Shown: one piece after another, positions 9,511 to 64,000 of the stretch | Position numbering within the stretch: the stretch's first letter is position 1 | Layout of the letters: each line of letters starts with the position of its first letter | From: Phoronis australis | Lineage: Eukaryota; Animalia; Phoronida | Reading direction: 5' to 3' | NCBI GenBank assembly: GCA_002633005.1 | Contig: NMRA01000338.1 | Location: forward strand, 432,106-496,105 | DNA length: 64,000 nucleotides | Translations under genes and position numbers: made by a program | Notes under the pieces: model-generated | Database searches by the model: none | Told to the model about the DNA's origin: nothing | The model's input: only the letters and a program-made list of their open reading frames with translations

Positions 9511-10818
9511 TTAATAGTTTGAAAGAAAACTTAAATTTGTTTGGCGTCGGAAGATAGTCTTTGAAATTCTTTTTTTTATCCTATTTATTGATTCAGGAAA
9601 CCTTTTTACACTCAGTGACGATTGTTTTGGCACGGGTCTTAAAACATAAAGTCGGGAAATAAGGCGTCTTATGTTATTTACTTTGAAGTTGGTCATTTTT
9701 ACCTGCCGATGTATGAAGAATAAGCTTTAACTAACTGATAGTTGATTTTAAAAATATCTCAATGGTTTACGAGAGCTATAAAGCATAATAAAAACTACCC
9801 TAAATGGATTGTGTATTCAATAGGCATCTTGGCTATTTTATGTGGGCATACAAGGCAGGTTTATTGGACCGCAGGCAGGAATTCAATCGCTGCTTGCTGG
9901 TTTTCAACCCCTTACTCCTCTTGCCTCCAGTTTCATTTACCACAACCCACCCCAATTTGTTACCCATTTTCGTAACAAAGACCTGCAGTGTGTATTTGGA
10001 GGGGGTAAGAGCGCAGTTTTTGGACATTGGCGTAGGAAACATTTGATGGCTGGGGGATGAAAGTCTGTTAATCTTTCAATCATATTTTAAAACAAAGTTT
10101 GTGCGCTGAAAGTTTTAATAATTATTTGTTAATTAATTGATATTAACACCTGGAATATTGGGAAAGAAAACTATCTCCGCCCCCAACATTTTGGTTGAGG
10201 GGCGCCCCCATTTTTGCTCCTAACGCTTCTTCAGCAGATCTAGCTTATATTTATTACTTCCCTGGCCCCCCTGGACAAAATCTTACAGGTTTTGTTCCTG
10301 CTCATCCTCCTGTCACCTATTTTCACCTGTTTACCTCTAATTACTGCATGAGTCACACCCTTGCTTATGATATCATGAGGAAAGTTCGCCTAGTCTCACA
10401 ATTTTCTGGCCCTTATCACAAACAATATCTAACTATAATAAACACCAGGCTAATTGCTGACAGACACATCAGACCCTTACTGAAAACCACAAATGAATGC
10501 ATGGAACTACTTTTCAAGACCAGTTGCATTGAATAAACACTTTGAGGGATATGACCCAAATTGACACACAGTTTATAGCAACGACAAGCTTTCTGTGGTA
10601 AAGTGAACTGCAGGAATTATTTAGATAAACCAGTAAGAAAACCGAAGACCCGAAAAATTTATTTTAAGCATACACTCAGAATCTCATTATTTTTATGCAA
10701 ACGTTAATCAAAGCATTGCCCTGCGTAAATGAAGAAATTTCAAACCTACAGATCAATCCAGAACCCAGGGAGGTCCAAGAAATAACAATGAATTTAAATC
10801 TCACTTGTAGTTCTACCG

Positions 10819-40002: not shown

Positions 40003-41921
40003 TCTTTGCGCTCGAGTGCACCGGCAATTTTAAAATATGTGAAAAGCAGTCGACTTATCGGTTCAAAAACATCCTAGTCTTGATTTTCGTCCAGGAAGCA
40101 ATGCCGCAAAAAGAGGCTGAACGGAAGTGTCTGTCCATTTAGCTCAAGCGTTCTGATTAGACAATGACATTTCCACTAACCAATCACAAGGTGTATGACA
40201 TATTTTTTCCATTACCTCGGTGTTGTTTGCAAATGGCTGCTTCTGTAAAACAATTCCTGCGGACCAACTGATCTTCACAATGGTTTTGTATAGTATACCT
40301 TAGTTATTCATCACAGGTCGGGAAAATTTTAAGGTAGGAATATACACTCACCATTCTTATGGTAGATTATTTCGCCTGAAGACTATCGATATCAATAACT
40401 GTTACTGTTAGCCTGGTGTTCACTTGTATCTGAAACATCAGCACTGCCACTATCCTTGGTAGGCTTGGTACAAAATACTAAATATACAGCTTTGCACCGA
40501 TGTGTGTGAAAAGGGGGTAAGATAATATCTGACACAAATTTAGTGTCATTAAAAACTACAGCCTTCCTTGAGTAAACTAAATTATTCAACAGTGTTGGAA
40601 AAATGGCGTTCTACCATTATTCTGCTGCTAAAGTTGTGGAGCGATCTTCTGCGTCGGCGCCATGAAATATTGCGTCACCTATTTGCCAGTTTCTTTTTTC
40701 GCCGATTCTTCAATCAACTGTTGTTCTTTCACGAGGTTGCGTACACGTCACAATAAATCATTGGAACTGGTTTCGCTTCATTATAAGTTTTTAGAATTTC
40801 GATTCAGAAAAACCAAATTTCAGAAGAAATTTTGCTGCTGCCAAGCTATCATCATCTCCCGACAGATGTCACAAAAATTTAGGAAATGGCGCGTGAGCAT
40901 GACATGAGAGTGCTGTTTTCAAAACGACAACATACTTTTCATTGTTAGAAAAGGCGGAGAGGTACGCAAGAAATTACATTTATTGCATTGTTTTTCACTT
41001 AAATGGCCGTAACGGGCAAGGTGAGTGTCGATTGATTCCCAGATTTTGCATGCACCCCATCCGGTCTTTAGCTTTACTTGGCGAGACAAGTTTCACGGCG
41101 AGGTGACAAGCAGAACTACCCTGGCTGTGTGAAATTTCGGGGTCTACGGAAGAAATACACACAGTGGTACCTAGCTCTATTGTGATGACAGTCTTCATAT
41201 AGCTAGCTGGCTGGCTACATCAGCACTTGACGTAACGAGCACTTTTGCTCTGCACCATTTCAATTTCATTAGTATTACACGCCTGAAACTGGTAGCACTG
41301 CAAATCCCAATTATCTTCCTGATGGGCTGTGAATAATTCGCTTACAAGGAAAACACGCATTTCTTAAGATATGTGGAAATTTTCATCGCTAGTTCCTTAG
41401 TGATGTTTGAACATCTTTCAGCAGGATCAAAGAAAGCGCGGTGTCAGAATCGGACACAGTTGTGATGACCGCATTGTCCGGTGCGAGCAAAACCCAGTTA
41501 AGACAATAACCCTTCCATAAACTGTAGTAAACATCCTCTGCCATTATAAATAAACCTTATGGCAGTATTCAGCTGGAAAAAAACAATATTTTTAGATATC
41601 GATGAACTAATTTGTAAGCTAAAAACTACAAACATCGGTTACAGATGGAAGATAAATGATTGTGCGTATTTATGTATTCCTAGGACTTACGAAAACTGAT
41701 CATAATTAACAATATCATAGTTTATATTCTGTTAGTAAACAACTAAACTACATTACAACAAATAAAAACAACATGTGACCAAATTAGATGTCAATAGATT
41801 TCAAGACAGCGCTTATTGCTTGTAATGTTGAACTACTTTATTTGAGGAGTTGCACACTAACCGGGAAATTGTGTTATTTCGTAATCAGCTTGTGATGAAA
41901 CACGGGTTTTGAAGACTAACC
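40003..41921. promoter_or_regulatory. Divergent promoter interval between FAM91A1 and the EF-hand/MTBD gene
   Basis: Head-to-head ATGs ~1.9 kb apart; ETS-like CGGAAGTG 40122-40129, CCAAT 40180-40184, YY1-like AAATGGCG near 40601 and 40884. Confidence 0.45.
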
Positions 41922-44900
41922 ATGTCTGGCTTCAAAGTCAGTGAGAAAATTCAAGCAATAGGTGAGGTGTGTTGGTGGACGAAAGCTGACTTCTAAGTTT
42001 CACTGACAATCAAAATCTGCCACTGTGGCACATTAAGCTTGAAAATAAATTATATGATAGCAACCCAGCAGGAAACAAAACAAAGTTGACTGGGGTTTAT
42101 TAAAAATAAAATGATGAAAACCATTATGACACATTTAAAGCCGTCGTTTGGGAAATGGCCCTTTGTCATGATGAACCCAAGTTACCATTTTTATGGCTAT
42201 TTTGTAATATTTAAAATGTATCAAATCAAAACCGTACTTTCTACATTTCCAGCTGTAACTTTGCAAATGCCAGAGAAAACCAGTTTCAGTATAATAACAA
42301 CCACCATTGCTGAGAAAGTAGTGCTAGCATTTACCTTTCTCCTTCATTAGCTCAAGTAGGAAGGGTGTGCTAAAGAGGCATTATAAAAGTTGTCTGAGCT
42401 CTAAGGGAATCTCACTGGTGAACAGTGTAAGCTAGAAATTTCCCAGGTGTTAGAAGATAAAACGAAGACAAATTATCTACCCAAAAGGAGAGGGCTGAAC
42501 GAGTTGGCAGCACTACTTTCCCAACCTCTTCTTGTAAGAGCGCCATGTGGGTCAGCCTTGTACTTGTGAGCATAGATGATTATTCTCTGTTTTAGGACAT
42601 GGTTACTCTGGTGGAAGACAGAGGCGAGGTCTTGTCTCAAATATTCCAGCTGTACGATAAAGATGAAAGAGGTGAACTGTCACCTATCCAAGTTCAGACT
42701 CTACACGCAGCCATGAGACAAGGGGGCATTAGTCTGCCGCAGGTGACCAAAATTGATACAAGGGTCATGACAACAGGCCTTCTTAATTCATTATTTATCT
42801 TACATGAATGGACTTGAAACTTTCTATTACTAAAAAATATCCGTATATTTTTTTGCTTGATTTTTGTACTCTAAATGAGACAGCTGAGATTGCTGAAACG
42901 GTATTTTAGGACCTCTTCAAACCTTGATTTACAAATCTAGAAAGTGTCCCACTGCATACTGGAATACACTAAATATTCAGAACAGTTGCAGTTATTTGCT
43001 TTTTTGAGATTCTTATGTGTGTATATGTAGTCTTGTTCTTTGTGAAAACTGCTTCACTGAATTGAGGCATGTTGAGATGAATGACACTTTAGATTCATGT
43101 CATCATTATCCTATAAGTTCACACATTTGATTGACCATTAGTGCCTCTGCCTTTGTTTTAATCAGTCACATTCTTGTAAATCTGCAACCTAAAAGTAATT
43201 TAAACGGATCTTGAGATCTAATCTCTGAACTCAAACACAGGCTCAAGATTATTTTTAAATAAAAAATAAAATTTTTAGAAGTCCACACTTGCTGACCACT
43301 AGAATCTCACCACAAAATCAAGTTTAAGCTCTTAGCTAATGTATGAATTTATCACAATGTTAATGTTGGTATCACATGAAGCATCACATACTCGATCAAG
43401 GGCACTTTATCTTAAACAGAAAATATCAGAAATGGTTTGAAATTCTGAGTTCGCAGTTCGACATCAAGCCGTGTTATTGATCTTACAGACTCTTGCTTCC
43501 ATTGACTATGTCTGTGTCAGCCATAACTGTGAGGAGTCAGAGCTGATAGACTTGCTTCAAGAGATGGACCGGCGTTACTTCTTGGTTAAGGACTTGAGGT
43601 GGGAGTTCTCCATGCTGGACAGGGAGCACAATGACACCATCAGTGAGGAACAGGCCAGGTGATATCTCCAGCTATCAGGCATACCTTCAGCTTGGATTCT
43701 ATACTTTCTCTGCTTAACATAAAACTCCATTTTTTGGCTTGATAACAAGTAGCAGTTGACATTGCACAACTTAATTGTCACTCATTTTCTCTGCAGCTGT
43801 GACAAGGTTGTGTATAAAATGTTGTTCATGTAGAAACATTTTTTGTTAAGTAAACCTCTTAATAAATAAATATCATTATGGACAAAAACGAAGGTCATAG
43901 TTTGCTGCCTTGGCTTTTGCTTCTATACAGACAAGATTATTTCCTTTGTTTGAGCAAATTATGTAAAGATTTCAATGTACTGGTCGAACACATATTTAAT
44001 GTTGCAACGCGTAACTCGATATTCACCAATACTTTGTTGAGAAAACACTCAATACCACTTTAGATCATGTCACAAAGTCATCATTTTGATGCACCTGTTT
44101 ATACATTTTATTTTATGTTAATGGGATTACATTCCTGATCCCCATTGTGATGGTAAGGTATACTCATTTCCTGTTGAATTTCTTCTCAATTCTTCAAGAA
44201 GGCACCACTCCATTTTGTGTTGTCCCATTCTTAATGATGAAGAAATGTTGCCGTTTCCCTGACGAAACAAGTGTCGTCCTGTGAGCTCAATAATAACATT
44301 TTCCCACTTAGTCCAAACAGAAAGACATTTTCCACATCATTTTGTGTTGACGCAGTTTCTGAAATATGAGCAAGAGAAGAGCCTGTTCCTCGATCAAATT
44401 AAGCCTTTGTTTCTGATCAAAGTTGTTTTCTGCACGAATTTAAACATCTTGACAAATTTTTAATTTGATGACAAAATTGATATATTCTTGCCATGACGTG
44501 TCTAAAATTCGAAGGCTTAAACAGATACTGAAATGTGTTTTGGTGATTTCAATCAAGGCCTTCTTCTGCTTCCTGCTAAATGTATCACTGTCATCCCACA
44601 TGAGTGGTAAAAAGCAAACTACCGTACGGTAAGTTCAAGTAAACATTCATACTCTCCGAGTCACAAATTTGATATTATGGTTCTTGGTGTGTGATCTTCT
44701 CTACAGTTGTTGTGTAACTCGCCTACAGTGTAGGTCACGCCTGCCTGTTTAGCAGACTTAGTTAAGGAGTTTACAAATTTTGCAACAAACGTTTGAGGGT
44801 TGTCAAGGATTACAGAACATTATTTTGTTTCAGAGAACTGGATGGGGAAGTTGTTTTCAATATCTGTTTACAGGCAAAGACCGAGTTTGGCATCCTTTTA

Positions 44901-47900
44901 ACATTCTTTACAACAACAAAAATCAGGGCTTGGAATTTTCCACGGAAACGCGGATTTCCGCTTTTTTCAAATGTGCTTTCCGCTTTTTTTATAATATTTC
45001 CGCGTAAAAAAATCGGATTTGATATAAAATTTCCGCGGCAAATTCCTTTCTTACCGCGGCGTTGCAGACGACGTTCACCTCGAAAAGCGGAAGTTGCTCT
45101 TTATGTTTCGGAGGAACATAAATTGTCAACATTGCCAGGGCATCTGGGACAGCGTGTTGGGATTTTCAATGGCGTCTCGTGTTATTGTTAAGCGCGGCGA
45201 CAAATACTACCACTCTGCAGCCAAAAATGTGTGGGTTGGGAGTGGACGGGCGAGCTAAAAGGACGCAGACGCATGCTAGTGATGGTGGTAACTTTTTTTT
45301 TTTAGTCCTCCCGATTTTTGTCGGGGAAAGGTTTACATTGACCATTTCAAGGCTGGTTATCGGGCATGATTTGGGCCGTAATAGTTTCAAAGTTTCCGCG
45401 TTTTTTGTCATTGGTCATTCCAAGCCCTGAAAAATAGGTAGATTTGTTATGTGTTGTAAACTGCCTCCTGCAACTGTCTATGTGATCTCATAGGTGGTTC
45501 ATGCAGTCGGTTCACGGGAAGCGGTTTTCCCGCAGAAAGTGGGAGAACTTCCTTCGTTCACGGGCAGTACCTCGATCAGGAGTTTGCTTTGCTGAAATCG
45601 AGGTGGAGCTGTGTAACATTCCCAGCTCAGCAGATGTAAAGGAAGAAGAAGAAGAGGCGAGGAAACAGGCTGAAGGTAAATGGAATTGTACTGTCATGGT
45701 TGTGTTCAGCTACTCTTATTCACAAGTTTCTTAGATCCTCGATCACTATGTTTAAAACAATTACCCCAAATGTGTGTGTAGTATTTCCAACTTGAATGTG
45801 TGCTTTTACGATAGTAGCATTGAAATACCACCATTGGAGCTTTAGATTAATTGATTAGTTCATTTGTGCCTTCTTTGTATCCACCTTCAGTCATAAAAAT
45901 AAATTTCACTACTCTTGTAATTATAAGACTAGTATTGGCTTGTTCCTTATTCCAATTGAAGGTGATTTCAGGGCTTAGGAAGTACTCTGAATTTCTTGCC
46001 ACTTGAGATCATGCTTGGTGCTTAAAAGGACCAGCCAAGTCAAGCTTACTTACTGAGCCTGGTCAATTATCATGGACTACGATATTCTTGTTTTCTTTGT
46101 GATCAGTTACAGTGGTGGTATTTTGTTTTTTCGCCAAGATGAATTGAAAGTAACGCTGCTCTGTTCAGTACATGCCAACAATAATCAGACAAAATGAAAG
46201 GAATTCCCTGTCTTGATAGGTGAGTGCGAACGGAATTCACTTTCAGTGTGGCAAGAATGACCAGTCATGACGACTCTCGACGAGTCATTACATGTCGTAG
46301 CCGTGGAAACGTTGTCTGATTGTGTTTGATGTGTACTGTACTTTTATACCCATGTAACCAGTGTGGTTAGTGACCTTCAATGAGTGTTCACTTTCTTTTG
46401 TTAATGCTTCCTCTCTAATTGAAGAACGGAGCCATGTGCGAAGTAAAGAGGACCAACCATTTCACATTTCTGTTGTTGCTAAGCAACACTCTGATACTCC
46501 TGTTTCAGGCAAAACTAACCCTACTAAAGGTAGTATATCAAGTTACATCAATGTTATTGGTTCAGTGCATGCATCAGTTATCATAATTGCTTGTTTTGCT
46601 TTCCTTCAGCCAAAAAGTTGATTTTGGACTGAAGATGTTTTTTCAAAGAACTGGGCAGCTTCATGCTCTTGGAGTGTTTAATTTCAACATGAAAAATTTG
46701 CATGGACACGGCTTGTTGATGAAAGATTGTTTTATTTTTAATTACCTCTCTGTTATTACAAAAATTAAGAAGCAAGTATGAAGTTGTTGCTTTCCTCCTT
46801 CAGTTTTCTAAGTGCGTAACGCTCATAACAGTCAGACCTGAATCAACTTTACTTTCCCAATCAACATCAGTTCCGTAACCTATGGTTTTTGTAAAGAAAT
46901 TTAGAGCGGTCATTATTGTCTTCTTGTAGTTCCAACTAAAGCACAAGACTAGTTTAATTATGATTGGCAGCACAGGTGCTTGAAATTTATGTCTAAGAAT
47001 CCAGCCCTTTATTACAGACTACGCGTGCACTGTACCATGTAGTAGTAGTTTAAGGGTGTATAGTTTTGTGAATTACTACATTGTCAGCTCATGTGATTGA
47101 TGAGAGCCCTGTTTCTAGAAAAAATAACCGCACAATAAGGTGCTTAAATGCTTTGTCAATTTCTGGGAACATGAAACTGCCACCCAGAGTTACAGTTATG
47201 TGTATAAAGTTTGAATTTGAATATAAGCCAGCACATTTATGGAGCTCTGACCCAGCGATTGCCTTTACATCATACTATTACCAACAATTTCTGAAAACAG
47301 GACTGAGGAACTAAAGGTGAAAAGACTTCAAAATTGTGGATGTCAATCTGGAAAACAACAGCAACTTCCAGTCACAGTTTTTGTTTAGTTATCCTAAATG
47401 GAATGCTTTGAAAAAAAGTTATTTTCATGTTCTAATATATATCTGTGTTACTGTCAACAAATTAAACTTCTCTTGGATTCCTTCCATCTTGGTCTTCAAG
47501 TCAGATTATCACAGAGCGAAAAAAAGGCCAGGAAAAATTTTGCTGCGTTTTGCCTTAGAATTCTTTCTTACTGAACATTGAATGAACACACATTTGGATG
47601 CGAGAGTGACTTCTTTTTCAAATGTGTGTCCTGATACTTACCATCAGAATGCAGTGTTAAGGAACTGGTGTTAGCATGTTGTTACAGCTGTGGCGCCATC
47701 TGGTGCCATCGTCCTGCATGGGTAGTGCCAGTGGTGATTTGATTTAGCAAATATGTACATGTATGTGCTAGATGCTTTGCTTGCTAATGACAAAATAACC
47801 ATTGATACGCCAATATTTGATAGTGCAGAAAGATTTCAAATGACAGTATGGAAAATTATTATTAATATTTTAATTGAGTTAATATTTAACCCGTTTTAAA

Positions 47901-50900
47901 ATCTGACTTTATTATTAAGATCTTGTTACTTGTTCTTAAAAAGTTAACTTCATTTTATGGTTTGTGTCCTCATTAAAATTGTTTGTTGTATTGAACTTCC
48001 GTTGTCATTTTGCATTATTTGGCTTGCGCTCCTCTTTTTAAACAATCTACACGTCATTTTCCATGTGTAGCTAAGATGAAATGAGGTAAGGTAATGATCA
48101 GTTATGTACACGTTCAAGACGTATATGAATTTTATTACCTTCGTCGTGTTGATTTTGTTGTTTTTATTTTTGTTAGGTCTACTCAGACAAACTGAATTGT
48201 ATTTTGAAATGTGCATGACAATAAGTTTGATTAATGCAAATGACATTTTGTTTACCTACTGGCACAACATTGTTTAGAGGAAGGGCAGTTTGTTATATTT
48301 TGTCTACATTTTATTGAAGAAGACACGGTTTTGGTTGACAGGTCACTCCTATTAATATGATATTTAATGTAAGCTGTGGTTTCGAAAGGTATGCTTGCAT
48401 GTGCAGCCAAATAGCTTACCATAGCCTTACTCATTCTTCAGTATCATAATTTATGTCAACAATCATGGGATTTTTTGTGAGTTAGGCAGTGCTTCAGTGC
48501 ATGGTCCTGTCCAGTCCTCTATTTCTCTCATTCTTAATTGTTCTATCTGAAACATAGAACAGAGGACACTTAGCAAGCGCATTTTAAAAAGTGCAAAAAT
48601 TGCATAACTTTTCAGTGACTTGTAGTTTTTATCTTACTCTTGAACTTGCCACGTCTATTCAGTACTTGTCTGTGTCTGGTGGTTCTGTCTTCACTGTAAG
48701 CATTATAGGTTGGCCATTTCTTGAGAAACAATGGATATTCAGAGTCAGTGGTACTGTTTTAATTCTGAAACTGATGTAGTCAAACACAGGCTTTTTTGTC
48801 GAAATATTTCTTACTTTTCATAATTAATAAATCTAATTTTGTAAAATGTATAAGTTAAAAACTCGTGAGCCTAGCTTTTTTGTTCATCTGACGTCTTGAG
48901 TCACAGGTGTTTATAAATTTTATGACTTTTATAAACGGATTTGAGTTTTTGTTTCAAGACTACCATAGACTTAACTATTGAATGTTTGCTGTGCGTCATA
49001 CAAAGCCAGTGGACAGATTCTGTAAAACAGTACCACAACAATAACAATGCATGCATTCCAAGTAGGCCTGAATCCAAGACTTTCTTCCTTGATTGTAATA
49101 TGTAGATATTTTCAACTTCAGACAGTAATACCATCCTTGAGGTTATTTTAAAAATGTGTCGTTCATAATGCCTCTTACATACTTCACATCAACTAATGGT
49201 AAAAGCTTTGTTAGTTAATTAACCATAATTTGAAGAGGAATATTTTTCTTTGATATTTTGAATTCAAAATTGAGTCAAAATATTAAATGTTTTTCTCGTT
49301 CATTCTGATGCTGTGCATTGAAAACTGAGAAATGTTAAATATCATTACCTCCATGTTGACTGATTCTGTTGTTTTTTATTTTCTTGCTGTCTCAGTGATA
49401 CTGAAGGTGACCTTGAAGATGGCCCAGAACCTAATGATGACTAGATCAGTTTGTAGATATCACCAAAATTTGATTGCACCTTTTAGTTATAGAATTAAGA
49501 ACTATTCCAGATTGTTTATTGCTTCTAAGGAAATTGATAGTTCACCATTAACTAAAAGTTTGTTGTTCCAAGCCTCACTTAGGGTATCCATTTTAGTGTA
49601 CCTAGTTTCAGCATTGCGTATCTTGGTATTGACGCAAGGCAGTGACACCCACAAGTATTGAATCATGTGTATGAACCACTGAATCATCTATCACTTACAT
49701 GATATGTACGAGACTCACTCCTTGATAATGAATGTTCCTGTAAGAAGTGGTTTGAATGGATGGTCAGATGCTTGTGTTGGAGATTTATGTTAGTGTCCAA
49801 TTTTTATTTTGTGCACGTAATGTTGCAGTTTGTACATGTGATTTGATGTGTGTGCTTGTGTCATACAGTTGACTGTTAGAGTAAGGTGAAAAATAATATT
49901 TTGTTATCAGGGCCCATGACCGCTTAAACTGTTGTTGAGTTGAGTCTCTAGTTTTGTCTTAAAAGTGGCCATTGGCTGAGAAGATGCTTTTGATATTGCA
50001 ATTTATGTTATGTTCAGAGTTAGACCTATGAATCAAATTTTGTTGAAAATTAGCCTACAAATAATGGCTCCTAGGTGATTTAAATTAATTTGTTCCTTTG
50101 AAAATCTCCGATTATTTATACCATATTCTGCTCCTGGCAGTATAGTATTTAGCCAATTGTACCCATGTGTATCAAACTGTTTTACAAATACCATTGAAAG
50201 TAACAACAATATAATCGGATTATTTAACACAGTGCTGGTTATTTTCGGTGTCTGTATACCAGACAGTTAGGTATCACTTATGTTGTGAAGTTAATGTCAC
50301 ACTGCGTGTGTGTGCAGCACATTTCATGCATGTCGTGTATGGTTAATAAGAAAGTACTGCAGGCGTTTATATGGAAGTCAGATTTTGGGTGTATAAAGTT
50401 TGTGTTGAAAATTTTATGTTAATGAATGCCAGAATGAAAATGTTTGGAGTCACAATACAGTGTCAACTTTGAAAATCCTTTTTATTGTGGTGTGAAAACT
50501 TTCTGAAAGGTTCCAATTTTAAAGTGGGAGGCTAGCTGGTATGCTAATATTTACTATAAGTTGTTGTGTTATTTATCAAGAGCATTCCATTAATTACTTA
50601 AGCGGCTGAATTTTCTGTCGCAAAATTATGTTTTATGGTTAGAAGGAAATGACCTGAACTTAGTTAATTTTATCTGTATGTGGTCTTAATGGAAGTATGG
50701 GACAGTTAAAAGTTATTATAAGATAATTAAATTTTTAAATTCTTAAAAGATTCACTTTTTTGGATTGTAGACGTATATTACAAAGTGAATCGTTCTGCCT
50801 TTGTGTGTTAATGAAATAAAGCAATATAGTGTGAAGATGGTATAAGGGCTGTTCCAGCAGAATCTGTGTGGGAGGGGGGGAAGGCAACTGAAATAAAAAT

Positions 50901-53900
50901 TTATGGGTGGTTGCATTTGATTTAAATTCAAAATGGCTGGTGGTCGTACTTCAAAAAAATTAAAATTTACAGGTCGTTGTTGTTTCATTGGGCCATAAAT
51001 GTATGATGGTGGGTAATTTTAGTAAATGTTATAAACAATCTGCACAGAATCAAAAACGGAAACAAAAATGCAACTTGCCAAAAGCTCCGACTTTTTCACT
51101 CCCTCCGATCTCCTCATCGGCATCCCCATAACGCCATTTAACCACAGGTGCTCGAATTTCTCGATGGCTAATAACCATATATAAGAAACATACGTTTTCT
51201 TAGTAATGAATGACGTTAGTGGTTATGGAGGAACAGATAAACTCAAGCGCCTGTGCAGTCAACCACAAGAACAAAAAAAAATTATGGGTGGTTGCATTTC
51301 AAACTTATAAAAAATTACGGGTGGTAGGCTGAAGAAATAAATGAAAATTATGGGTGGTGGGTGCGAAAAAAAGGTGCCTTCCCCCCTCCCATACAGATTT
51401 TACTGGAACAGCCCTAAGTCATTACAGTTTAAAATTAAAAGATTCTAATTAACGTCATTGCTTTCTACTTTTAAGCACTTACTATGCATGTCAAACAATT
51501 TTGTTTATATAACCTTTGACTCACTGAAGGGTTTTGGATTAGGTAAGTCTAACTGCATGCAGTTCTTTTAAGCCAGTCATTTTGATTCTTGATCATGGCA
51601 AATGTTAACATGTGTCTTTTTGTTGGGATCTCATTTAAAATTAATGAATATAAATTTGTTTTTCTTGTTTTTTAGAGTGTCTGTGGAAAAGTTTTGTCTT
51701 ACTCCGCTGTTGGGGTTTTTTCCCCAAGCTGGTCAAATTAATTGTAGTTTTTGTGCCTTTGTGTATCAACCCTCTCGTTTAGTGTTGTCATTGTGAGAAT
51801 GAAGATTCTAGTTATTTGTCAACACTGACTAGTGTCAAACGTTACTAAAAGGTTAACAAACAATATATCAATAATTGGTACACTATGTGCATCGATTTCC
51901 AACTGTGTTCATGGTTAAACATTTATTGTAGAAAAACTGAGAAAACAACGAGAGGCTGAGGAGCGACGTAAAGCCAGATTGGAAGATGAGCGAAAACGTA
52001 AAGCTGAAGAGGCAAAACTCAGAGAAGAAGAGTTACGAAGAAGGGATGAAGAGCTGCGTCTCAAGGAAGAAGTAATGTTGATTTTATGATCTGTCTTCAT
52101 TGGGAACATGGCAGTCACACCATGTATTTCCCATTTAACAGGGTTCACATTTATCCAAAACAGCTGTTTTATTAGAGTTGCCATTAGCCAGCCAGCTAGC
52201 TGTGTATGACTCAATGTCAAAACACAGCTAGGATTTTATGTAGGTAAAGAGTTGGCAATTTAACCAAACCTTGCTTTTTCAATTTGCTCAAACTCATTTT
52301 GTGGTCTTCTTGCAACAAAACTCATCAAAATGTAGCATGCCCAGTAGTACGTAAGTTTTGAAACTGCGACATTTAAACAACACCTAACTTGGTTCACTTA
52401 TGAACGTTTGAAAGTAACGCATTCTGATGAATGCCGTTTACTTACGTCACTGTCTGGCTTTTGTAACATAGAGAAATCTTTTGTTGTTTTCAAAACATGA
52501 TGCTCGTGACATGCACAGGTGCCATTTTGCTGGATTTTTTGCATGTGTAAAATCTTATGACATCTTATGGAAGATGGTAACAATTTTGCCAAAACAAAAT
52601 TTTGGACAGAATTTCGGTTTGCTGGTAATTGAGTACTCAAAGCTATATGCAACTATTTCTGGCCATTTGTTGTTAAGTGTGTGCGAACTTGTGGAGAAGA
52701 TCTCAGTGGATTGAAAAATTGGCAAAATCAGAAATTGGCCTACAGGTCGCGTTCATGCTCACTTCACAAGTTCAAGTATAGAATACCCACAAAGAGTGTA
52801 GCTTTTAATGATATTCACTTCCTGTCAGATTTATTTCTGTCACTTTGTATCCAGATCAATACAAAGCTGTATGAATATGTACCTTTGCACCTAGACTAAG
52901 GTGTCTGGAAGATTATTCTGCGTGCACAAGTCTGTATCTGTATACTAGATATCTTCGTATTTATGAATTGCTTCTTAATCTTACATCAGGAGGAATTGAG
53001 GAAGAAGAAGGAAGAAGAGGAGCGGAAGAAGCGGGAAGAAGATGAAGAAGCTTTGAAGAAGAAGTTGGAAGAAGAAGAGGAGGAGAAGAAGCGCAAGAGA
53101 CTGGAAGAGAAAGAACGAGAGGAACAAGAACAAAGAGAACAGGAGGTGAGGGAGGAAGGGAAGAGATATTTACCATTTATTCAGAAGAATGTTAAGGAAC
53201 AAGTGTTTAATTAAGCATAGGTGTTGAGTTGGTTTTAGAGAGAGAGAGAGAGCTGGTGGGATTTATTTTATCAGCTGTTGTCAGAGACTACAATGAACAG
53301 ATCAGTAATGTGTTGAAGTGGTCTTGTGGTGGCAAGTGTCAGTAATGTTAACTTTGTATGAATACAGCTTAGTGTTGAAATCACGCCATGTTTCAACATT
53401 TACCATTGTCAAGCTATAATTCATGAATGACAAGCCTTGACTTTTATACCCAACTCCTAGCCTTGTCTTTCATGATGCCAATAAAACCAATTTGTTGAAC
53501 TTGATTACAGGAATTGGAAGAGAAGATAAGGAGGGAAGCAGAGGAGCGTAAACAGAGAGAGCTGGAGGAGGCCAAGGGTGCTGAACAGTTGGCTAAAGTA
53601 AGCAGACTGTCTTACCTTCAGTGACATTGTCTCACTTTTTGGGGTTGTTAGACTGTCACTTCCTAGTTTTGACCAATGCGCTCAAACGTTGAGAAACTTT
53701 AAACAATTTTTCAGTCATGCCATAGTTTTCCAAAACTTGACATTCTATAAATAAATTGCAATCATGTGTTAGAGTACGAACATAGATTTTATTGTGGCAA
53801 ACACACAGATGCTTACAGTGGTACAGAAGAAGTGAATGCGTTTCTTTGACACTGTTTCATTCCTTCATAACTTGCTTTCAAATAAGAATAAAAGAACTGG

Positions 53901-56900
53901 TTTTTCTTTAAAAACTTTAAAAAACTAACAGTTTTTTAAAATACTTTTTGTGGTAAGTTTTCTTAATGAATATGTTAATAGAAAGGGAGGGTGGTCGAGA
54001 TGATTTAGATTTTACAAAGTTGCCACAAAAAGCAGCATGAATTTTTTAGTTGTTGAACGTGCGTATTTGTTGTAGTAGTCTAAACATATGAGTGCATTCT
54101 AATAACAGGAAGCTGAGGAAAAGGAAAAGGAGGCTGGTGAAGAGTTGCTGCGAGCCCAGAAGGCATTGAAGGATGCCCAGGATGCCAAGAGTAAGAAAGA
54201 AGCAGAAGAGCTGGAGAGGATAGCAAAGGAGAAGGCTAGAGGTGTGTATGTTGTGTAGTGTGGGCGACACTATCAGGAAAAGGCCGTGACATTTTGTTAT
54301 GTATCATTTTAGTTGATCTCAAGTATTCCTCAAACAGCTAGCATGTTTGAAGAAAAGATGACAATTAAGAAATATATTCAATTGCCTATTACAGACGAGT
54401 ATAACTCTTTAATTCAAAACTTCAATCATATTGTTGATTGCTTTACCTGTTTATAGCAAATAATGAAAAGAAAGTCCGAGCCAAATTGAAGGTTGCCATC
54501 AAGTCACGTGACAAGGGTAAGCTGGAGAAGGGTATCAAATCATTCAAAGACGCCAAACTTAAGGACAACGACATGGACCTGGCAACAGCTGAGAAGATCC
54601 TGAAACAAGTGAACGCCAGAGACGGTATGGGTTTAACGCCTTGCTCTAATTCTCAGCATTATTAAGCGTGCTTGGGTTAAAATGTTGATGCATATTTATT
54701 TGCCTGAGTAGTACACATTGCAGGAGCACAAAGCTTGTCATTCACGTTTTATTTTTAATGCAAACTCGGTCAAAGCTTTCATTTGGATTGCTTGAAGCTT
54801 CAGTCAATATTGGCAATCAAAACTCTGACCCCTTCAAGTTCTAAAGCACTGCTAACCACAGCACCCATAGGTGGCACTGCAAACTGGTTTCTACTGAATA
54901 TTTCTTGATCAAGGCTTGGAATTTTCCACGGAAACGCGGATTTCCGCTTTTTTATGCGCCCACATATTTATATGTGGACGCATTATGCCGTCATCTCTGT
55001 CCGTCCGTCCGTCCGTCCGGGCGGCGTCCGTCCGGCGTCTGGCGTCCGCTGCTCTATCTCCAAAACCCTTTGACATATGTTCATGAAATTTGGCACATAT
55101 GTTCCATTCATGAATAAGACGGCATGTGCGAACTTTCGGACGGATCCGACTACCGGTGTGCCCCCTAGTGGCAATTTTAGTTTTTTACGCTTACCTTTGT
55201 ATCTTCAAAAGTCCTGAACGGATTTTCATGAAATTTGGTATGTAGGCACCTGTATTTTTGCGTCCACCCCTCTATCAACCAAACCGCTCAAAGGATGATT
55301 GTGAAAATTGGCGTGTATGTGCTTACTATAAGGAAGACAGCTGACAATGATTTTCAGACGATTTGGACTACTGTGGCGCCTCCTAGTGGCAGTTTTGTTT
55401 TTTTGCGCCCATGGCTGTATCTCCCAAACCGTTTGCAGGATCTTTACTAAATTTAGCAAGTGTATTTATGTGATGTTGACAACGGACGATGACGACTTTA
55501 GGATGATTCTGATTACCGGTATGCCTCTAGTGGCAATTTTAGTATTTGCCTCTAGTGGCAATTTTAGTATTTTACATTGACCTCTGTATTTTCATAGGTC
55601 TTCAGGTGTATACTTTGTGTTACTTCGTGACTGTGAAGGAAAAGTTCCAAGTAGAAATTTGTTTCTGGCATTCTAATGCTGTGCTAATCTCGTATGTTGG
55701 TAAATTTGTTTTTAATTCTATGTTTCTGTGGTGCTTTAAGCAACTGGTGTATAGGATGTGCTTGTATTATGAAGATTACTCACATTTTGCCCCTAGCCTA
55801 TTGAGGAGACAATGACCATGCCTTTCCATTTTGCAAAGTATGCCCTCTACTGGCCACTTTATGGTACCAATAAACAACCCTAGAAGGATACCGTATGCGG
55901 TGCAATTGTGGGCGCATTTCAACGCTCCGCGTTGCTCTTGTTTAAATGTTCTGTCCACATATTATTATATTTCTGCGTAAAAAAAATCAGATTTGATATA
56001 AAATTTCCGCTGCAAAGTCCTTTCTTACCGCGGCGTTGCCGAGAACTTTCACCTCAAAAAGCGGAAGTTGCTTTTTATGTTTCGGAGGAACGTAAATTGT
56101 CAACATTGCCGGAGCATCTGGCGACTCGTGTGATTGTAAACCGCGGTGACAAATACTAAGACTCTGCAGCCAAAAATGCGTGGTGTTGGGAGTGAGCGGA
56201 CGAGCTAAAAAGACGCAGACGCACGCTTCTGGAGACGGTACCGTTTTTTTTTTATAGTCCTCCCGATTTTGGTTTGCAAAAGGTCTCGAGGCTGGGGAGC
56301 GTGCTTCGGGCCGTAAAAGTTTCCGCGTTTTCTGTCATCGGTCATTCCAAGCCCTGCTTGATATATGTTATCGCCATCCAATTTATCTCTGTATAAACTT
56401 ATCATTAGTTTATCAACAACTTAGTAAACACTATATTTTGTGTTCTTGACTTGCACAGTTGTTTCTAATTTAAATGTACAAACTACTTCTCCCATCTACA
56501 TCCAGGCTTAAAGGGTGCAATGAGCAAGCGAGAGATTGAAGCCATTGAAAAGGCCATGACATTTGTCAAGAAGAATGGCTTTGAGAAGGATCTGGCCCCA
56601 GAGATGTTGGAGGCAAATAAGCTGCTGATCAACCTGCGACGACTGGAGCGCATCAGGGCCGAGATCCTAGAACTGAAACAGTCGACTGTGGCAGAGATCA
56701 GGAGCTACTCGACCCCGCCCATAGCTGTCCATCATGTGATGACTGCCACTTTCTTGGTGTTAGGCCATCCAGAAAAGGAGACAAAGGTCAGGAAATGAAT
56801 TGATTGATCTTGCACAGAAATAATTTTGATAACTTCTGATTGGAAAGATTATGTTGTATTTCTGGGATTCTTTTCGAATCTCTAAATACACTATACACCA

Positions 56901-58573
56901 AAACATAAACGGGTAAAATAAAACCATCATAGTAGCTGAGTGCATGCAGAGTTTGTGTCATGGCGGTAATTCATCACCTCCTGAAATGATGGGAAGGCTG
57001 AACAAAGCGAGAAGTGCTGTGTGACCTGAAGGAACAGAGACCGAATTAACTGTTATGGCTCGTCATTTTTGCTGTGAATTGAATTTGCTGTCATTATTGG
57101 AAATGGTATTTTGTCTAGTTACTTGTGGCATGTGCTCTATGATAGTATATTTCTTTGCTGATTCTGTTCATTCTAGAAGAAATATTTTGTACTATTCCAT
57201 GCATGCCAAAAGTAATCGGACATGATGATGGATGAGCCTAAGTTGAATTCCTGTCATGACATTTGAGTGTAAGCAGAATTGACTGTCATAGGCAGCCGGA
57301 AGCCATGACCAGGAATTTACCAGAAAGTTAGTTTAATGGCAAGGCTATTTCTACAGTTAGGATCTAATCAAGATACAAACCTGGTGATATGTAATAAAGG
57401 CGCAGCTCGTACCGCACATGCCTGCCTAATTAGGTCACCCTTTGCTACATCACTATGCATGAGAGCTGTGTTTTCGTCAAAATTGCATCACAGTGGCTAT
57501 ACATTTAAGATAGTCAGTTGCATTAGAAGATTGACGGAGGCATTCTTCTTGTCGCTGGGCAAACAGTGGTTCTTTCAATGTATTGCAAATACGTAAGCAA
57601 TTATTTGTCATGATTATTTTGAGACTGAGTTTGATGTACGCAGACATTGGTCTTCATAGGGCAATGAAATCTGGATTTAACACCACATCCGTGCATGTTA
57701 TCAAAACGAGATTTTGACCAATCGGAAGATGGTAAAACTTTCACTCTTTCACCATCACATTAGGAAGCCTAGAACACGGACAATACTGTGCTCTGTACTA
57801 TGATAATGAAGTTGTTGACATGATGCCGCTTATTATGTTCTACATGACTGTACACTGAAATTATGCCTACACTGTGCACCTATATACTGAAGATTGCAAG
57901 AATAGGTTACAGGCAGAATGGCTAGTCATAACTGGTCCTTTCCCGCCGTTCTTAGTGGGAAAAGTCTTTAGGCAGGATTAACGGTCACGACGTAAACAGT
58001 ATTTTATCTGACATGTGGTTTCTTTTGCAGTGTGCTCTACTTACCACAGTGTCTAATATAATGCATTATAGTTTAGTTTTGTTGGCACTGTTGAGTGAAC
58101 AAAAAGCACGAAAATAATTGTATAATTACATGAACACTAAAAGCATTTTTCTTGCTATAGGTTTGGAAGACAGTTCAGGCCCTGGTAGGCAAGACGGGCA
58201 AGGATGGTCTGAAGAGACGGTGTCTAGAGCTTAATCCTGATAAGTTGGATTTGAAGCAAGCATCAAGGGCAAAAGAACTGCTGAATAAATACGAGTTGGA
58301 TGAGATACGTGACGTGTCTGCTGGAGCGGCAACCTTCTATTGCTGGGTAAGGGAATTTGTCTCCATGTACCGTTTGTGTGTCAGTTAGTTAAAAAACTTT
58401 AAACATATTTCAAATGATCATCTTTCAATATGACTCCATTTATTTTTGAAATTAAACACCTTTAAGTTTACATTTTATTTTAGGCCACAAGCATGATTGA
58501 AGAAAAAGAAGCCAGAATGGAGGCTAAGCAAAGAGAAGAGGAAGAGAAGAAACAATCTGCAGCCGCTAACTAG
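41922..58573 (+). CDS. EF-hand + ER/K single-alpha-helix + dynein-like microtubule-binding domain protein (~584 aa)
   Basis: Exons: 41922-41936 (tentative, MSGFK|gtcagt; otherwise start at Met 42599), 42596-42742, 43489-43658, 45494-45675, 51932-52071, 52990-53145, 53511-53597, 54109-54241, 54457-54624, 56506-56786, 58161-58346, 58484-58573 (TAG). All GT-AG with continuous frame. EF-like loops DKDERGELSPIQ and DREHNDTISEEQ; C-terminal EIRSYSTPP..V..VM.A....LG...W...VSAGAATFYCWA. Confidence 0.88.
44924..45429. mobile_element. hAT-like MITE, TIR CAGGGCTTGGAAT, 6-bp TSD (AAAAAT)
   Basis: CAGGGCTTGGAAT...ATTCCAAGCCCTG; AAAAAT on both flanks; second copy at 54910-56356. Confidence 0.85.
50846..51414. 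mobile_element. PIF/Harbinger (Tourist-like) MITE, 40-bp TIR, TAA TSD
   Basis: TIR GGGCTGTTCCAG(C/T)A(G/A)AATCTGT(G/A)TGGGAGGGGGGAAGGCA (3 mismatches); TAA on both sides; internal repeats of aattatgggtggt. Confidence 0.9.
54910..56356. mobile_element. Second copy of the hAT-like MITE (6-bp TSD CTTGAT), interrupted by a Helentron
   Basis: CAAGGCTTGGAAT...ATTCCAAGCCCTG; CTTGAT on both flanks; sequence either side of the insert is collinear with 44924-45429. Confidence 0.88.
54948..55943 (+). mobile_element. Non-autonomous Helentron/HINE nested in the MITE
   Basis: Inserted in a T-run; 5' subTIR ATGCGCCCACA within a stem-loop, (GTCC)n microsatellite, internal repeats, 3' subTIR TGTGGGCGCAT, 3' hairpin CAACGC-TCC-GCGTTG, then CTCTTGTTT. 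Confidence 0.88.
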
Positions 58574-58770
58574 CATTAGGTGTTATTTGTTAATATTCAG
58601 AAAACTTAAATCGGAATGTATGTGTCATGGTTTTAAGTGCGGTGGTACTATTTCTGGTCTTATGGAAGAGAAGAAACAATCAGTAGCCGCTAACTAGAAT
58701 TAGTTTTGTTATTTGTTAATATCGGATATTAAACTTAAATAATGAAATGTATGTGTCATGGTTTTAAGTG
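58540..58770 (+). repeat. Tandem duplication of the stop-codon region/proximal 3'UTR
   Basis: gaagagaagaaacaatc..agccgctaactag...atgtatgtgtcatggttttaagtgc occurs twice, about 124 bp apart. Confidence 0.85.
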
Positions 58771-60153
58771 CACTGGGATTATTTTACTATAACTTTTCTA
58801 GTCCCATGCTTGTATGAAACTCAGTTAAAATATACTTATAAGCAGTTACGATGATATTCTGTTCTTGCAATACTGTGAACTCACTGAGTCATCCTTTGTT
58901 TCAAGCCACTTCTTTTCGTGAAATCAATAAATGCGGCAATTTGGCCTGTCAATATCCACTTGTAAAACTGCTTATCGTGTTGGCATCGGTTTCAACATTC
59001 AGTTGGACTTGTTAGATAACCTGTGACTGAATTGGAGAGGTCACATTTTGGATGCCTGGGTAAACCTTTGGTTTTCTGAAATATTTTTGTCTGTTAAATG
59101 ATATTCTTTGTAGCAATGACAATGAAGTGATAGCATAACGAAGAATTGTTTGGCCAATTTTGTTGTATTGTAACGGTTTTAATTTGTTTTTCTCGGACAG
59201 ACCAACTGGAGGAAATGTTTAAGTGTTGTGTAAACATGAATTTAGCTTCATTTGAAGTCGTAGTGCATAAAAATAATTGACGTCTCAAAATTGCCATTTT
59301 CCATTATTCAAAAGCTGATTAATTTACGACAATTAATGGAAAAAGTTGTTTTATTACATCTACACAGTACAAAAGCATAGTAATAAACTATAATTTTCTT
59401 AATCTTTAATTATTTTTGTGGAGAAATTTAATGAATTAAGAAATATTTCCTTTGTCGGCCAAATTGTGTGCTAAATAAGCGAAGGATTACCTATTAATTA
59501 AGTCATGGGACTTTGATGTAATGTCAAAATATTATTGTCTTTCTTTTTCTTGTTCTAATTATCACCATGTGTCTTAATTATGAAGAAATTAATTTCTTAT
59601 CTAAACAATGATCCTTGTTATTTTAGTGTTTTCATTTGCAGATATTAGGAATATTAATCGGTGTGATTAATATATTAGTGGCTGGCCACTGTAATACTGT
59701 TTACTTTAATAAATAGTCTTTTTATTTGACATGTTTGTTTTTTATACAATGCTTTGTGTGTGCCATGTAAGGGTGGGACTGTCTACCATTTCCTTATTGA
59801 GAACGAGAAGACAATTTCATTTTTGTTCAAAACATATCACATACACTGTAAAAGGTTCTTTTCATCAAGTTGAACATGCTCCCCTATGCTGTCTGCTTAG
59901 AAGAAGTACCTCCAGGTGCAGCCAGGTGGCGATGAAGTCAAAGCGGCCCCCATTGCTTCCTAAAAGAATCCGATTAATTTTACCACACATGAATTCTTGG
60001 CTTCTAAAGAAGTCCCGCTTCATTAACTAGTAATAGTGTATATGTTTTAAAGCAATCTCTTGAAAACGGACTAGTAAAAATTTCAGTTAAAACTATGACC
60101 CTCGTACATTAGTTTTGAGGTTGTGTAGTACTGTCATGCTACAGGTGGCACTC

Positions 60154-62675: not shown

Positions 62676-63796
62676 TTACACTGTTTGCCATTTGTTACAT
62701 GCACTTCCCTCCCTGAACCACGGACGGCCGTCGACATCCAGTGCCCAGATAGTACCACTTACGTCGTCGATATCAATCAGTTTAAAATTTCCTTCAAAGC
62801 TCGACCATTTTCGTCCAGTGGGGTTTCGCGCACACATTCCGTAACGGAAATACACCAAGTTGTCTGTAGTAGTGATAAAAACCGCGTCATCACCAACGCT
62901 TATTCTACTGACAGTGTATGGGCAATGTACCGTCTCCCAGCCACTTCCAGTCGTCCCTGGTGTCTGATAAGTTCCTTTCCTGTAGATTAGTTCCCCCGTT
63001 GATCTCAAGGCCCAAATGCCTGCTTTTCCCGCGGACACTTGTGCAATGTTAGCTTCAATGTAAGTCCAGCCACTTCCAAACGATGCCAACGATGAACCAA
63101 GCCGCCGGTAAAGATTTTGTCTGCTGTTTACGCACCAAACTTCATTTGAATGGGAGGAAACACTGATTTGGCGCATATAAACATTAACTGACACCCAACT
63201 ACTTCCTCCCGGTTGGTTTGCACTTACTGACGACCTGTAGTAGGTAATTTCATTACTGCCCGTTGCCCAAATCACGTTTGTCCCGGATGAGATGTATCTT
63301 AAGCCGCCTTGTATTTGCATCCAATCACCTCCTGCTGATGGGTTGGTTCCGGGCGCTCTGTATGTGCCTCTTTTGTGCCAGATGGAACCATCCGTATGTG
63401 TCGCCCACACTCCAGACTGTCCGGATGAGATCCAAAAAAATCCGTTTTCGGTTGTATGTGAATCCATCTGTAACCAAATTCCGTAACTGTTGTTTTCTCA
63501 TAAAGATTGGAGCCATTTTGTTTTGTTTCGAGAACAAGGTCACATGACGTAGTTAAGTTGCATATGACGGAGCCTGTGTCCTCTTCCTGTACTGAAAAAG
63601 CAGTACATTCCAGATCCCGAAGGCACACTCGTGCGCACTGTGACACGAAATTCTTCACAATAGTTTGGCTGGTCGCTCTCACGGCAGCCCCTGTTTGTTT
63701 CGAAAACCAACATTCTCTCTTGTTATGTTGAGAGCTAAGTACATATTTCGCACAAAACACCATTGCCACAATTTTCAAAGCATTTAACGGACTCAT
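62676..63796 (-). CDS. Secreted PAN/apple + tectonin-repeat beta-propeller lectin-like protein, intronless, 1-bp frameshift (pseudogene or sequence error)
   Basis: ORF 63299-63796 gives a hydrophobic N-terminus and PAN motif CARVCLRDLECTAFS...CNL...LYEK; ORF 62676-63467 gives tectonin repeats (ISSG..GVWA, WxQIxGGL, VSAGKAGIWA, IWALD..GRPWFR). One extra A in the A4 run (63493-63496) fuses them as LYEKNNSYGIWLQMDS, 373 aa. Confidence 0.8.
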
Positions 63797-64000
63797 CTCG
63801 CTGGCGACTTAACCTTTTCTGAGGCTACGAATCAGTCGCGGGATTAAAAAAAAACGAAAACGAAGGTTATACCGGGAAATCGATTAATGAGCGCCTACTG
63901 AATTGCTAATGTACATTGACATTTAACGCATTCCAAAATAATATGAGATTTTCACAAAGTCTCAAAAATTTTTTTCACTTAATTCAATTGAAAGTGGGTG

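What the first reader, a model, noticed from the sequence alone, without database searches (positions are those of the whole stretch)
56506..58573. Stand-alone dynein-type microtubule-binding domain on a motorless EF-hand protein
Seen: the last three exons encode AEILELKQSTVAEIRSYSTPPIAVHHVMTATFLVLGHPEKETKVWKTVQALVGKTGKDGLKRRCLELNPDKLDLKQASRAKELLNKYELDEIRDVSAGAATFYCWATSMI, and the gene stops about 25 aa later. Known: the dynein heavy-chain stalk-tip MTBD has the pattern L...I.EI(K/R)S...PP..V..VM.AV..LL...W...D.I...S.AA..L..W..A, which this follows closely. The spliced gene has no AAA+ ring; its N-terminus is EF-hand-like. Inference: a dynein MTBD reused as a passive microtubule anchor linked to a possible Ca2+ sensor, e.g. 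a ciliary or cytoskeletal cross-linker. I do not recognise this architecture as a characterised family.
Basis: partly seen in the sequence, partly recalled or inferred. Interest (0 to 1): 0.85.

Follow-up and report, generated by a model that had tools for sequence, protein, structure and literature searches.

The report
Motorless dynein foot on EF-hand protein
This expressed animal gene, with full-length relatives from sponges to sea squirts, carries the microtubule-gripping foot of the dynein motor but no motor, and the same foot is joined to many unrelated proteins, so it is likely a reusable passive anchor, although microtubule binding is untested and half of dynein's known contact residues are changed.

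Summary
Observation confirmed. RNA reads support one 12-exon, 585-aa gene: four-EF-hand head, charged single-helix spacer, helical cap, C-terminal dynein-MTBD-like domain. MTBD homology is firm: family profile versus yeast dynein MTBD E 3e-13; ortholog model matches dynein stalk heads at Z 16. There is no AAA ring, and both stalk prolines and the long stalk are missing. The same architecture occurs in sponges, cnidarians, spiralians, echinoderms, amphioxus and a tunicate. New here: the module is mobile. It matches 908 clusters and ends KY/hillarin-like, CLCA/VWA, EGF and CD20-like proteins, mostly behind a membrane segment in the membrane-type ones. Three solved non-dynein chains (radial spokes, Toxoplasma microtubule) share the fold, so non-motor use is not unique. 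Ten literature searches found no description. This scan noted one other motorless dynein stalk, in a protist (unchecked). Best reading: passive microtubule anchor (0.5); rival: non-tubulin docking domain (0.3).

The parts
42599..45675 (+). Coding exons 1-3 (42599-42742, 43489-43658, 45494-45675): four-EF-hand head, aa 1-165, degenerate calcium loops
   Evidence: RNA joints; weak Pfam EF-hand hits; ortholog model matches penta-EF-hand, FCaBP and calmodulin folds at Z 8-9.7; loop tally. Start codon inferred from ortholog N-termini.
46509..46529 (+). 21-nt in-frame microexon (7 aa) between head and spacer
   Evidence: Letters found between 45680 and 51930 in 3 and 6 reads; AG/GT flanks and frame checked.
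51932..54241 (+). Four exons (51932-52071, 52990-53145, 53511-53597, 54109-54241): E/K/R-rich single-alpha-helix-type spacer, about aa 173-344
   Evidence: 69% E/K/R and 47% opposite-charge i,i+4 pairs over 185 residues (model without the microexon); RNA joints and a 640-nt contig; long helices in the ortholog model.
54457..56645 (+). Helical cap, about aa 345-447 (exon 54457-54624 and the start of exon 56506-56786); its last helix runs into the CC1 stub
   Evidence: Helices in both models; found with the MTBD-like domain in 76 of 81 longer representatives.
56646..58346 (+). Dynein-MTBD-like domain, about aa 448-556 (CC1 stub, H1-H6, start of CC2), split by intron 56787-58160
   Evidence: sequence; fold of orthologs; shuffle control on the window's own protein; coordinates.
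58484..58573 (+). Last coding exon: CC2 stub (29 aa) and stop
   Evidence: RNA joint 58346>58484; translation.

Best explanation
This is a real, conserved 585-aa protein whose C-terminal domain is a dynein microtubule-binding domain cut free of motor and stalk, and which likely works as a passive, ATP-independent microtubule anchor. Shown: the gene, its expression, the homology, the missing motor, stalk and stalk prolines, and the spread of the module. Inferred: the helical cap would hold the CC1/CC2 stubs in one register, so affinity would be fixed rather than cycled. Binding would use the kept H1 Glu/Arg and H3 Lys plus a new basic H3-H4 insertion in place of the lost H6 Arg, so the pose probably differs from dynein's. 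The charged helix would act as a spacer of up to about 28 nm (185 residues at 0.15 nm), and the degenerate EF-hand head would more likely dock on a partner than sense calcium. The same module would tether KY/hillarin-like proteins and the cytoplasmic tails of membrane proteins to microtubules.
For: Homology: family profile versus yeast MTBD E 2.8e-13, with 58 of 60 shown PDB rows dynein; Foldseek 30 of 32 rows dynein; VIA Z 16.4, rmsd 3.1 A over 137 residues, with the best unrelated row at 7.5. The domain is the best conserved part: mean identity 68% over 52 relatives, against 53% for the head and 36% for the spacer. Kept in 43 EF-type domains: E3122-equivalent 43, R3124 (R/K) 42, R3152 (K) 39; new basic positions 508, 512 and 513 in 43 each. 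Core net charge +4.9 versus +4.2 in four dynein fragments. The module is within 60 aa of the C-terminus in 67 of 81 longer representatives. In 11 of 12 CLCA/VWA, EGF or CD20-like fusions scanned it follows a hydrophobic segment, and in four of them a signal-like N-terminus plus one such segment puts it on the cytoplasmic side. A chain of a Toxoplasma intraconoidal-microtubule structure shares the fold (9ya2_L, Z 9.4-10.3). I infer it is ICMAP2, which binds the lattice and holds two microtubules together (PMC12819142, passages).
Against: No binding or localisation data. Of six yeast salt-bridge residues, each lowering affinity more than 2-fold when mutated (PMC7042235, passages), three are changed: K3117 to Gln in 41 of 43, R3159 to Gly in 41, R3201 to Asp/Glu in 42. 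H6 net charge is -1.7 versus +0.2 in dyneins. The mapping is by alignment, not docking, with only four dynein sequences as controls. The fold also occurs in radial-spoke chains (7jtk_C Z 12.7; 9fqr_Xl Z 11.2, inferred to be one) at places where lattice contact is not expected. Those Z values are in the range the tool flags as uncertain for helical bundles. Ortholog models scored slightly higher against low-affinity than high-affinity yeast MTBD (14.3 vs 12.2; 14.5 vs 13.3), a weak sign.
Confidence: 0.5

Rival explanations
1. The dynein foot fold was re-purposed as a protein-protein docking domain that no longer binds tubulin, as seems likely for the similar domains in radial spokes; the invariant basic patch binds an acidic partner.
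For: Conserved charge reversal in H6 and loss of two more contacts; fold shared with radial-spoke chains; the long C-terminal part of RSP2 reaches the spoke head surface (PMC10774353, passage); very varied fusion partners.
Against: The H1 Glu that pairs with alpha-tubulin R402 is invariant in all 169 family domains aligned (43+126), though it could also be structural; the core stays as basic as dynein's; the Toxoplasma chain with this fold lies on a microtubule.
Confidence: 0.3
2. One reading: a calcium-regulated microtubule cross-linker, in which the EF-hand head binds Ca2+ and switches binding or dimerisation.
For: Four-EF-hand fold; loop position 1 is Asp in 43 and 45 of 48; position 12 is Glu in EF2 (46 of 48) and EF4 (47 of 48); head and foot stay linked from sponges to tunicates.
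Against: EF1 and EF3 mostly have Gln at position 12 and Lys/Thr at position 5 (canonical pattern recalled); EF2 and EF4 loops lack the other acidic ligands; the head is about 275 residues (median) from the foot; many carriers of the module have no EF-hand (7 of 81 have one).
Confidence: 0.12
3. The module is a decoy that sits on the dynein/kinesin site of the lattice and so gates motor traffic or damps axonemal sliding, rather than tethering cargo.
For: It derives from the domain that binds the tubulin intradimer cleft (PMC6629372, passages); it has no way to release by ATP.
Against: No data on motors; fusions to membrane proteins and KY-like proteins fit tethering better; the changed contacts suggest a different pose.
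Confidence: 0.06
4. Artefact: a stray dynein fragment or a wrongly joined gene model.
For: Pfam MT is only E 0.14 on the single exon and absent at E<=1 in 14 of 14 close relatives scanned.
Against: RNA joints link head to foot; 52 stored relatives carry both domains; no dynein match in the window; the family lies on its own side of a 98-supported branch from the four dyneins (quick tree).
Confidence: 0.01

Closest known systems
Dynein heavy-chain stalk head / MTBD (Pfam PF12777 MT; PDB 3ERR, 5AYH, 6KJO, 6RZB, 8I3J)
   Same: Six-helix fold with CC1/CC2 stubs (Z 12-18); H1 E-I-R-S motif, Pro-Pro, the H3 Trp and the CC2 Trp; sequence homology E 3e-13.
   Different: No AAA ring, linker or tail; no long stalk (median 23 aa after the CC2 Trp); CC1 proline absent in 43 of 43 but present in 4 of 4 dyneins; 3 of 6 contact residues changed; basic H3-H4 insertion; N-terminal helical cap.
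Toxoplasma intraconoidal-microtubule chain 9ya2_L (inferred ICMAP2; PMC12819142)
   Same: Non-motor chain with this fold (Z 9.4-10.3, rmsd about 3 A over 123-124 residues); ICMAP2 binds the lattice as a dimer and links two microtubules.
   Different: 10-13% identity; fold split by an insertion; apicomplexan. Identity is inferred from size (162 of 1,678 residues). The paper's data statement lists 9YA2 as ICMT-2 while the PDB title says ICMT1. The paper's main text does not use the term MTBD; its domain figure was not visible.
Radial-spoke chains 7jtk_C / 7jrj_I (inferred RSP2) and 9fqr_Xl (inferred EFCAB5); trypanosome 9e5c_2e
   Same: Non-motor axonemal chains with a similar fold (Z 12.7, 7.4, 11.2, 8.6). 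If Xl is EFCAB5, it too pairs an EF-hand with a C-terminal domain of this fold.
   Different: 10-18% identity; not among the rows shown in my PDB sequence searches. Chain names are inferred from recalled lengths and were not confirmed. EFCAB5 has a DPY30 motif and sits in the RS3 stalk (PMC11779644, passages); no DPY30 was found here.
KY/hillarin-like transglutaminase-core proteins, CLCA/VWA and CD20-like proteins of molluscs, brachiopod, amphioxus, tunicates
   Same: Carry the same cap+MTBD-like module at the C-terminus, at 29-53% identity.
   Different: Different N-termini, no EF-hand head; database names ignore the module.
DNAHX non-motile dynein (bioRxiv 10.1101/2025.01.18.633724)
   Same: Dynein derivative that lost motility in animals.
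   Different: Keeps the whole heavy chain and has a disrupted MTBD (passages); here only the MTBD is kept.

Membership tests
Dynein heavy chain | AAA+ ring, linker and tail | tested here: not met
   585-aa complete gene; no AAA Pfam hit in 14 relatives; no tblastn hit of four dynein fragments in the window.
Dynein heavy chain | Long antiparallel stalk with prolines near the head (role recalled) | tested here: not met
   CC1 Pro 0 of 43 versus 4 of 4 dyneins; CC2-window Pro 4 of 30 versus 4 of 4; median tail 23 aa.
Dynein MTBD | Sequence homology to the stalk head | tested here: met
   E 2.8e-13; E 6e-4 for a single ortholog; reciprocal 26.3 bits versus shuffle maximum 10.5.
Dynein MTBD | H1-H6 fold closed by CC1 and CC2 | tested here: met
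   Ortholog models pLDDT 86 and 85; Z 16.4, rmsd 3.1 A. The window's own spliced protein was not folded.
Dynein MTBD | Pfam PF12777 gathering score | tested here: inconclusive
   Passed by the sponge relative P0060 (26 vs 24 bits); 14 of 24 module sequences hit at E<=0.1; 11.6 bits for the window's single exon; no hit in 14 close relatives. The model covers the whole 344-position stalk.
Dynein MTBD | Six tubulin salt-bridge residues of H1, H3, H6 (yeast; PMC7042235) | tested here: not met
   3 of 6 kept; K3117>Q, R3159>G, R3201>D/E.
Dynein MTBD | Binds the microtubule intradimer cleft | not testable with these tools
   No tubulin sequence was on hand for a complex model; needs an assay.
EF-hand calcium sensor (calmodulin / penta-EF type) | Paired helix-loop-helix fold | tested here: met
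   (Z 8-9.7).
EF-hand calcium sensor (calmodulin / penta-EF type) | Canonical 12-residue loop with ligands at 1, 3, 5 and Glu 12 (pattern recalled) | tested here: not met
   Position 12 Gln in 38 and 28 of 48; position 5 mostly Lys/Thr; Pfam scores below gathering.
EF-hand calcium sensor (calmodulin / penta-EF type) | Binds Ca2+ | not testable with these tools
   Needs ITC or similar.
Radial-spoke EFCAB5/RSP2-type proteins | DPY30-type docking motif and presence in spokes | tested here: inconclusive
   No DPY30 Pfam hit; no relative of this family among the PDB rows shown; only fold similarity.

The most novel reading that the evidence does not exclude
Early in animal evolution the dynein foot was freed from its motor, capped, and became a mobile microtubule-anchoring module: an undescribed microtubule-binding domain class. 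It is kept on an ancient EF-hand protein from sponges to tunicates and grafted onto KY/hillarin-like proteins and the cytoplasmic tails of CLCA, EGF and CD20-like membrane proteins. With the radial-spoke, Toxoplasma and CFAP97-linked cases, the motor's foot would have been released several times.
Probability: 0.4. Interest if true: 0.85.

Novelty: new variant of a known kind. Interest (0 to 1): 0.7.

Why it matters
The dynein MTBD is normally treated as a part of the motor only. A large invertebrate family that uses it alone gives natural, fixed-register versions for testing which contacts set affinity and how the stalk controls release. It would also give a microtubule link to hundreds of proteins now labelled trichohyalin-like or uncharacterised, including hillarin-like and CLCA-like proteins. 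If it does not bind microtubules, it shows a motor part re-used for another partner, which bears on the similar domains in radial spokes.

Tried and rejected
Own-genome search: no genome is held, so paralogs and copy number in this species are untested. Homodimer model of the EF-hand head (Lottia ortholog aa 1-175): no verdict. TTLL11 'MTBD-like' is an unrelated helix-loop-helix usage. First exon at 41003-41020: dropped in favour of ATG 42599, since no joint was among the rows shown and ortholog N-termini fit the latter. Internal duplication within the helical cap: not significant, 122 of 1000 shuffles scored as high. The careful tree did not finish; only the quick tree is used, and it does not resolve which architecture is oldest or which dynein class was the donor. 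Gui 2021 and Grossman-Haham 2021 are not held and may already describe the RSP2 fold. Chain Xl could not be named from supplements; file 1 was unreadable. Literature: ten searches found no paper on this family or on six ortholog ids; subscription papers and supplements are not covered. No vertebrate, arthropod or nematode name appears among named hits, but 758 of 908 clusters were not listed and most listed ones are unnamed, so absence is not shown. The EF-domain search from the sponge protein returned only 4 proteins. ESM Atlas gave unnamed mollusc-rich clusters and one with MT in 14% of members at score 0.81, a lead only.
Full report
Gene. The finding is the 3' end of a + strand gene. Joining GT-AG exons gives an open frame. 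RNA (four runs, two studies; one is a contig set only guessed to be RNA) supports the joints 42742>43489, 43658>45494, 53145>53511, 53597>54109, 54241>54457, 54624>56506, 56786>58161 and 58346>58484, almost all with the first mate on the minus strand, which fits a + strand transcript. It adds a 21-nt microexon at 46509-46529 between 45675 and 51932. The joint 52071>52990 was not a listed row, but a 640-nt contig covers 51931-52072 and 54109-54550 with 242 letters between, matching the two exons there (243 nt). With ATG 42599, inferred from ortholog N-termini, the protein is 585 aa in 12 coding exons.

The domain is a dynein MTBD homolog. Pfam alone is weak: E 0.14 on one exon, none in 14 close relatives. 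A Mytilus ortholog fragment (P0034) finds dyneins in 12 of 15 PDB rows, best E 6e-4. A profile of 24 family members reaches E 2.8e-13 against yeast dynein MTBD, aligning H1 to CC2, with 58 of 60 shown rows dynein (73 matches in all). In reverse, a profile of four dynein MTBDs scores the window's own region 26.3 bits against at most 10.5 for shuffles (those four segments were themselves picked by the family profile). AlphaFold models of two orthologs (pLDDT 86 and 85) match dynein stalk heads: 30 of 32 Foldseek rows, VIA Z 16.4, rmsd 3.1 A over 137 residues. The window's own spliced protein was not folded; its domain averages 68% identity to 52 relatives.

It is not part of a dynein. Four dynein fragments find nothing in the window. 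The CC1 proline is present in 4 of 4 dyneins and 0 of 43 EF-type domains, and the chain ends a median 23 residues after the CC2 Trp. In dynein, sliding of CC1 against CC2 sets affinity (PMC6629372, passages). Here a helical cap runs into CC1 and there is nothing to slide it, so fixed affinity is inferred.

Range. Full-length EF + spacer + cap + MTBD-like proteins occur in molluscs, annelids, a bryozoan, nemerteans, a brachiopod and echinoderms, two sponges and an orthonectid, a jellyfish and corals, a tunicate and amphioxus. Databases call them trichohyalin-like, caldesmon-like or uncharacterised. The window's closest listed relatives are molluscs and annelids (70-75% over the exon searched).

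The module is mobile. A search of 50%-identity representatives found 908 clusters at E<=0.001 and listed 150. Of these, 111 hold a near-complete domain; among the 81 of 300 aa or more, 76 also have the cap, 67 end within 60 aa of it, and only 7 have the EF head. Of 43 longer hits that I chose for a Pfam scan, 29 have KY-like Ig domains (most with a transglutaminase-like core), 4 have VWA or CLCA domains, and one each has EGF or CD20-like domains; named ones are from bivalves, gastropods, Lingula, amphioxus, a hemichordate, tunicates and a rotifer. In 11 of 12 CLCA/VWA, EGF or CD20-like fusions scanned by hydropathy the module follows a hydrophobic segment, which fits a cytoplasmic anchor. In a quick tree (66 of 185 domains chosen, 127 columns) the family and the four dyneins fall on opposite sides of a branch with SH-aLRT 98, but long branches meet and inner order is unresolved.

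Evidence against simple dynein-like binding. PMC7042235 (passages) lists six yeast salt bridges. I mapped them by counting along the alignment. In 43 distinct EF-type domains three are kept (E3122 43, R3124 42, R3152 39) and three are not (K3117 Gln 41, R3159 Gly 41, R3201 Asp/Glu 42); the four dyneins keep a basic residue at these three in 4, 3 and 4 cases. Compensation is plausible: Lys/Arg one residue after R3159 (42 of 43), Arg one residue before R3201 (40), and an invariant basic insertion between H3 and H4. Net charge moves from H6 (-1.7 vs +0.2) to H3-H4 (+4.1 vs +1.0), with the total unchanged. The surface is remodelled under strong conservation: a changed pose on tubulin, or a different partner.

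The head. It models as four EF-hands, closest to penta-EF-hand and FCaBP domains at Z about 9. EF1 and EF3 have Gln at position 12 in 38 and 28 of 48 sequences and mostly Lys/Thr at position 5; EF2 and EF4 keep Glu 12 but lack the other ligands, and EF2 has a Cys invariant in 48 of 48. By the canonical loop pattern (recalled), high-affinity Ca2+ binding is doubtful.

What is known. VIA found non-dynein chains with the fold: 7jtk_C (Z 12.7), 9fqr_Xl (11.2), 9ya2_L (9.4), 9e5c_2e (8.6), 7jrj_I (7.4). I infer RSP2, EFCAB5 and ICMAP2 for the first three; only the ICMAP2 inference rests on numbers I read (PMC12819142, passages), and the tool warns that Z under 13 can be a common helical arrangement. 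The passages I read in PMC11779644, PMC12423330, PMC13443885, PMC10774353 and PMC12819142 do not describe these domains as MTBD-like; term look-ups in PMC12399478 and bioRxiv 2025.05.19.654877 gave no hits. I could not see the two 2021 radial-spoke papers, any figures, or one supplement file, and they may bear on novelty. Ten searches found no paper on this family. This scan earlier noted a motorless dynein stalk in a marine protist RING protein (e1-9581352, unchecked), a different architecture.

Verdict. Real gene, real dynein-foot homolog, no motor: shown. Ancient conserved architecture and mobile module: shown by sequence. Passive microtubule anchor: inferred, 0.5. Non-tubulin docking domain: 0.3. 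Calcium-switched cross-linker: 0.12. It is not a member of the dynein family, and it fails the contact-residue test for a typical MTBD, but it may work like one. Novelty: new variant of a known kind; interest 0.7.

Noticed in passing
P0189 and P0212 (unnamed ENA proteins): Five and nine near-identical tandem MTBD-like repeats; P0189 starts with a CFAP97/Hemingway domain. They lack the basic insertion, keep the K3117 equivalent and group with dyneins in the quick tree: possibly a separate release of the dynein foot, or a gene-calling artefact.
   Followed up: partly
PDB 9ya2_L, 9fqr_Xl, 7jtk_C, 9e5c_2e: Solved non-dynein chains with a dynein-MTBD-like fold; the passages I read do not name it as such.
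   Followed up: partly
P0053 (Pinctada): KY/hillarin-like protein with three copies of the cap+MTBD-like module; amphioxus versions place a CARD domain just before it (P0069, P0070, P0080).
   Followed up: no
window 18366-40029 (-): FAM91A1-type gene (Pfam FAM91_N and FAM91_C), head-to-head with this gene, about 2.6 kb from ATG 42599.
   Followed up: partly
window 62676-63808 (-): Tectonin-propeller ORF with a PAN-like ORF just upstream in another frame; possibly one secreted lectin gene.
   Followed up: no
window 58540-58784: The end of the coding sequence, stop codon and start of the 3' UTR are duplicated about 125-130 nt downstream at 90-93% identity.
   Followed up: no
window 46774-50511: Low, even sense-strand read depth (up to about 4) across this intron part, above most other repeat-free introns; could be a short EF-head-only isoform or retained intron.
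   Followed up: no
window 44640-45430, 50500-51570, 54780-56390: High-copy repeats in introns with read depth in the hundreds to thousands.
   Followed up: no
window 7875-9530 (-); about 690-5390: Broken LINE-type reverse-transcriptase ORFs (RVT_1), and a degenerate tandem array near the window start.
   Followed up: no
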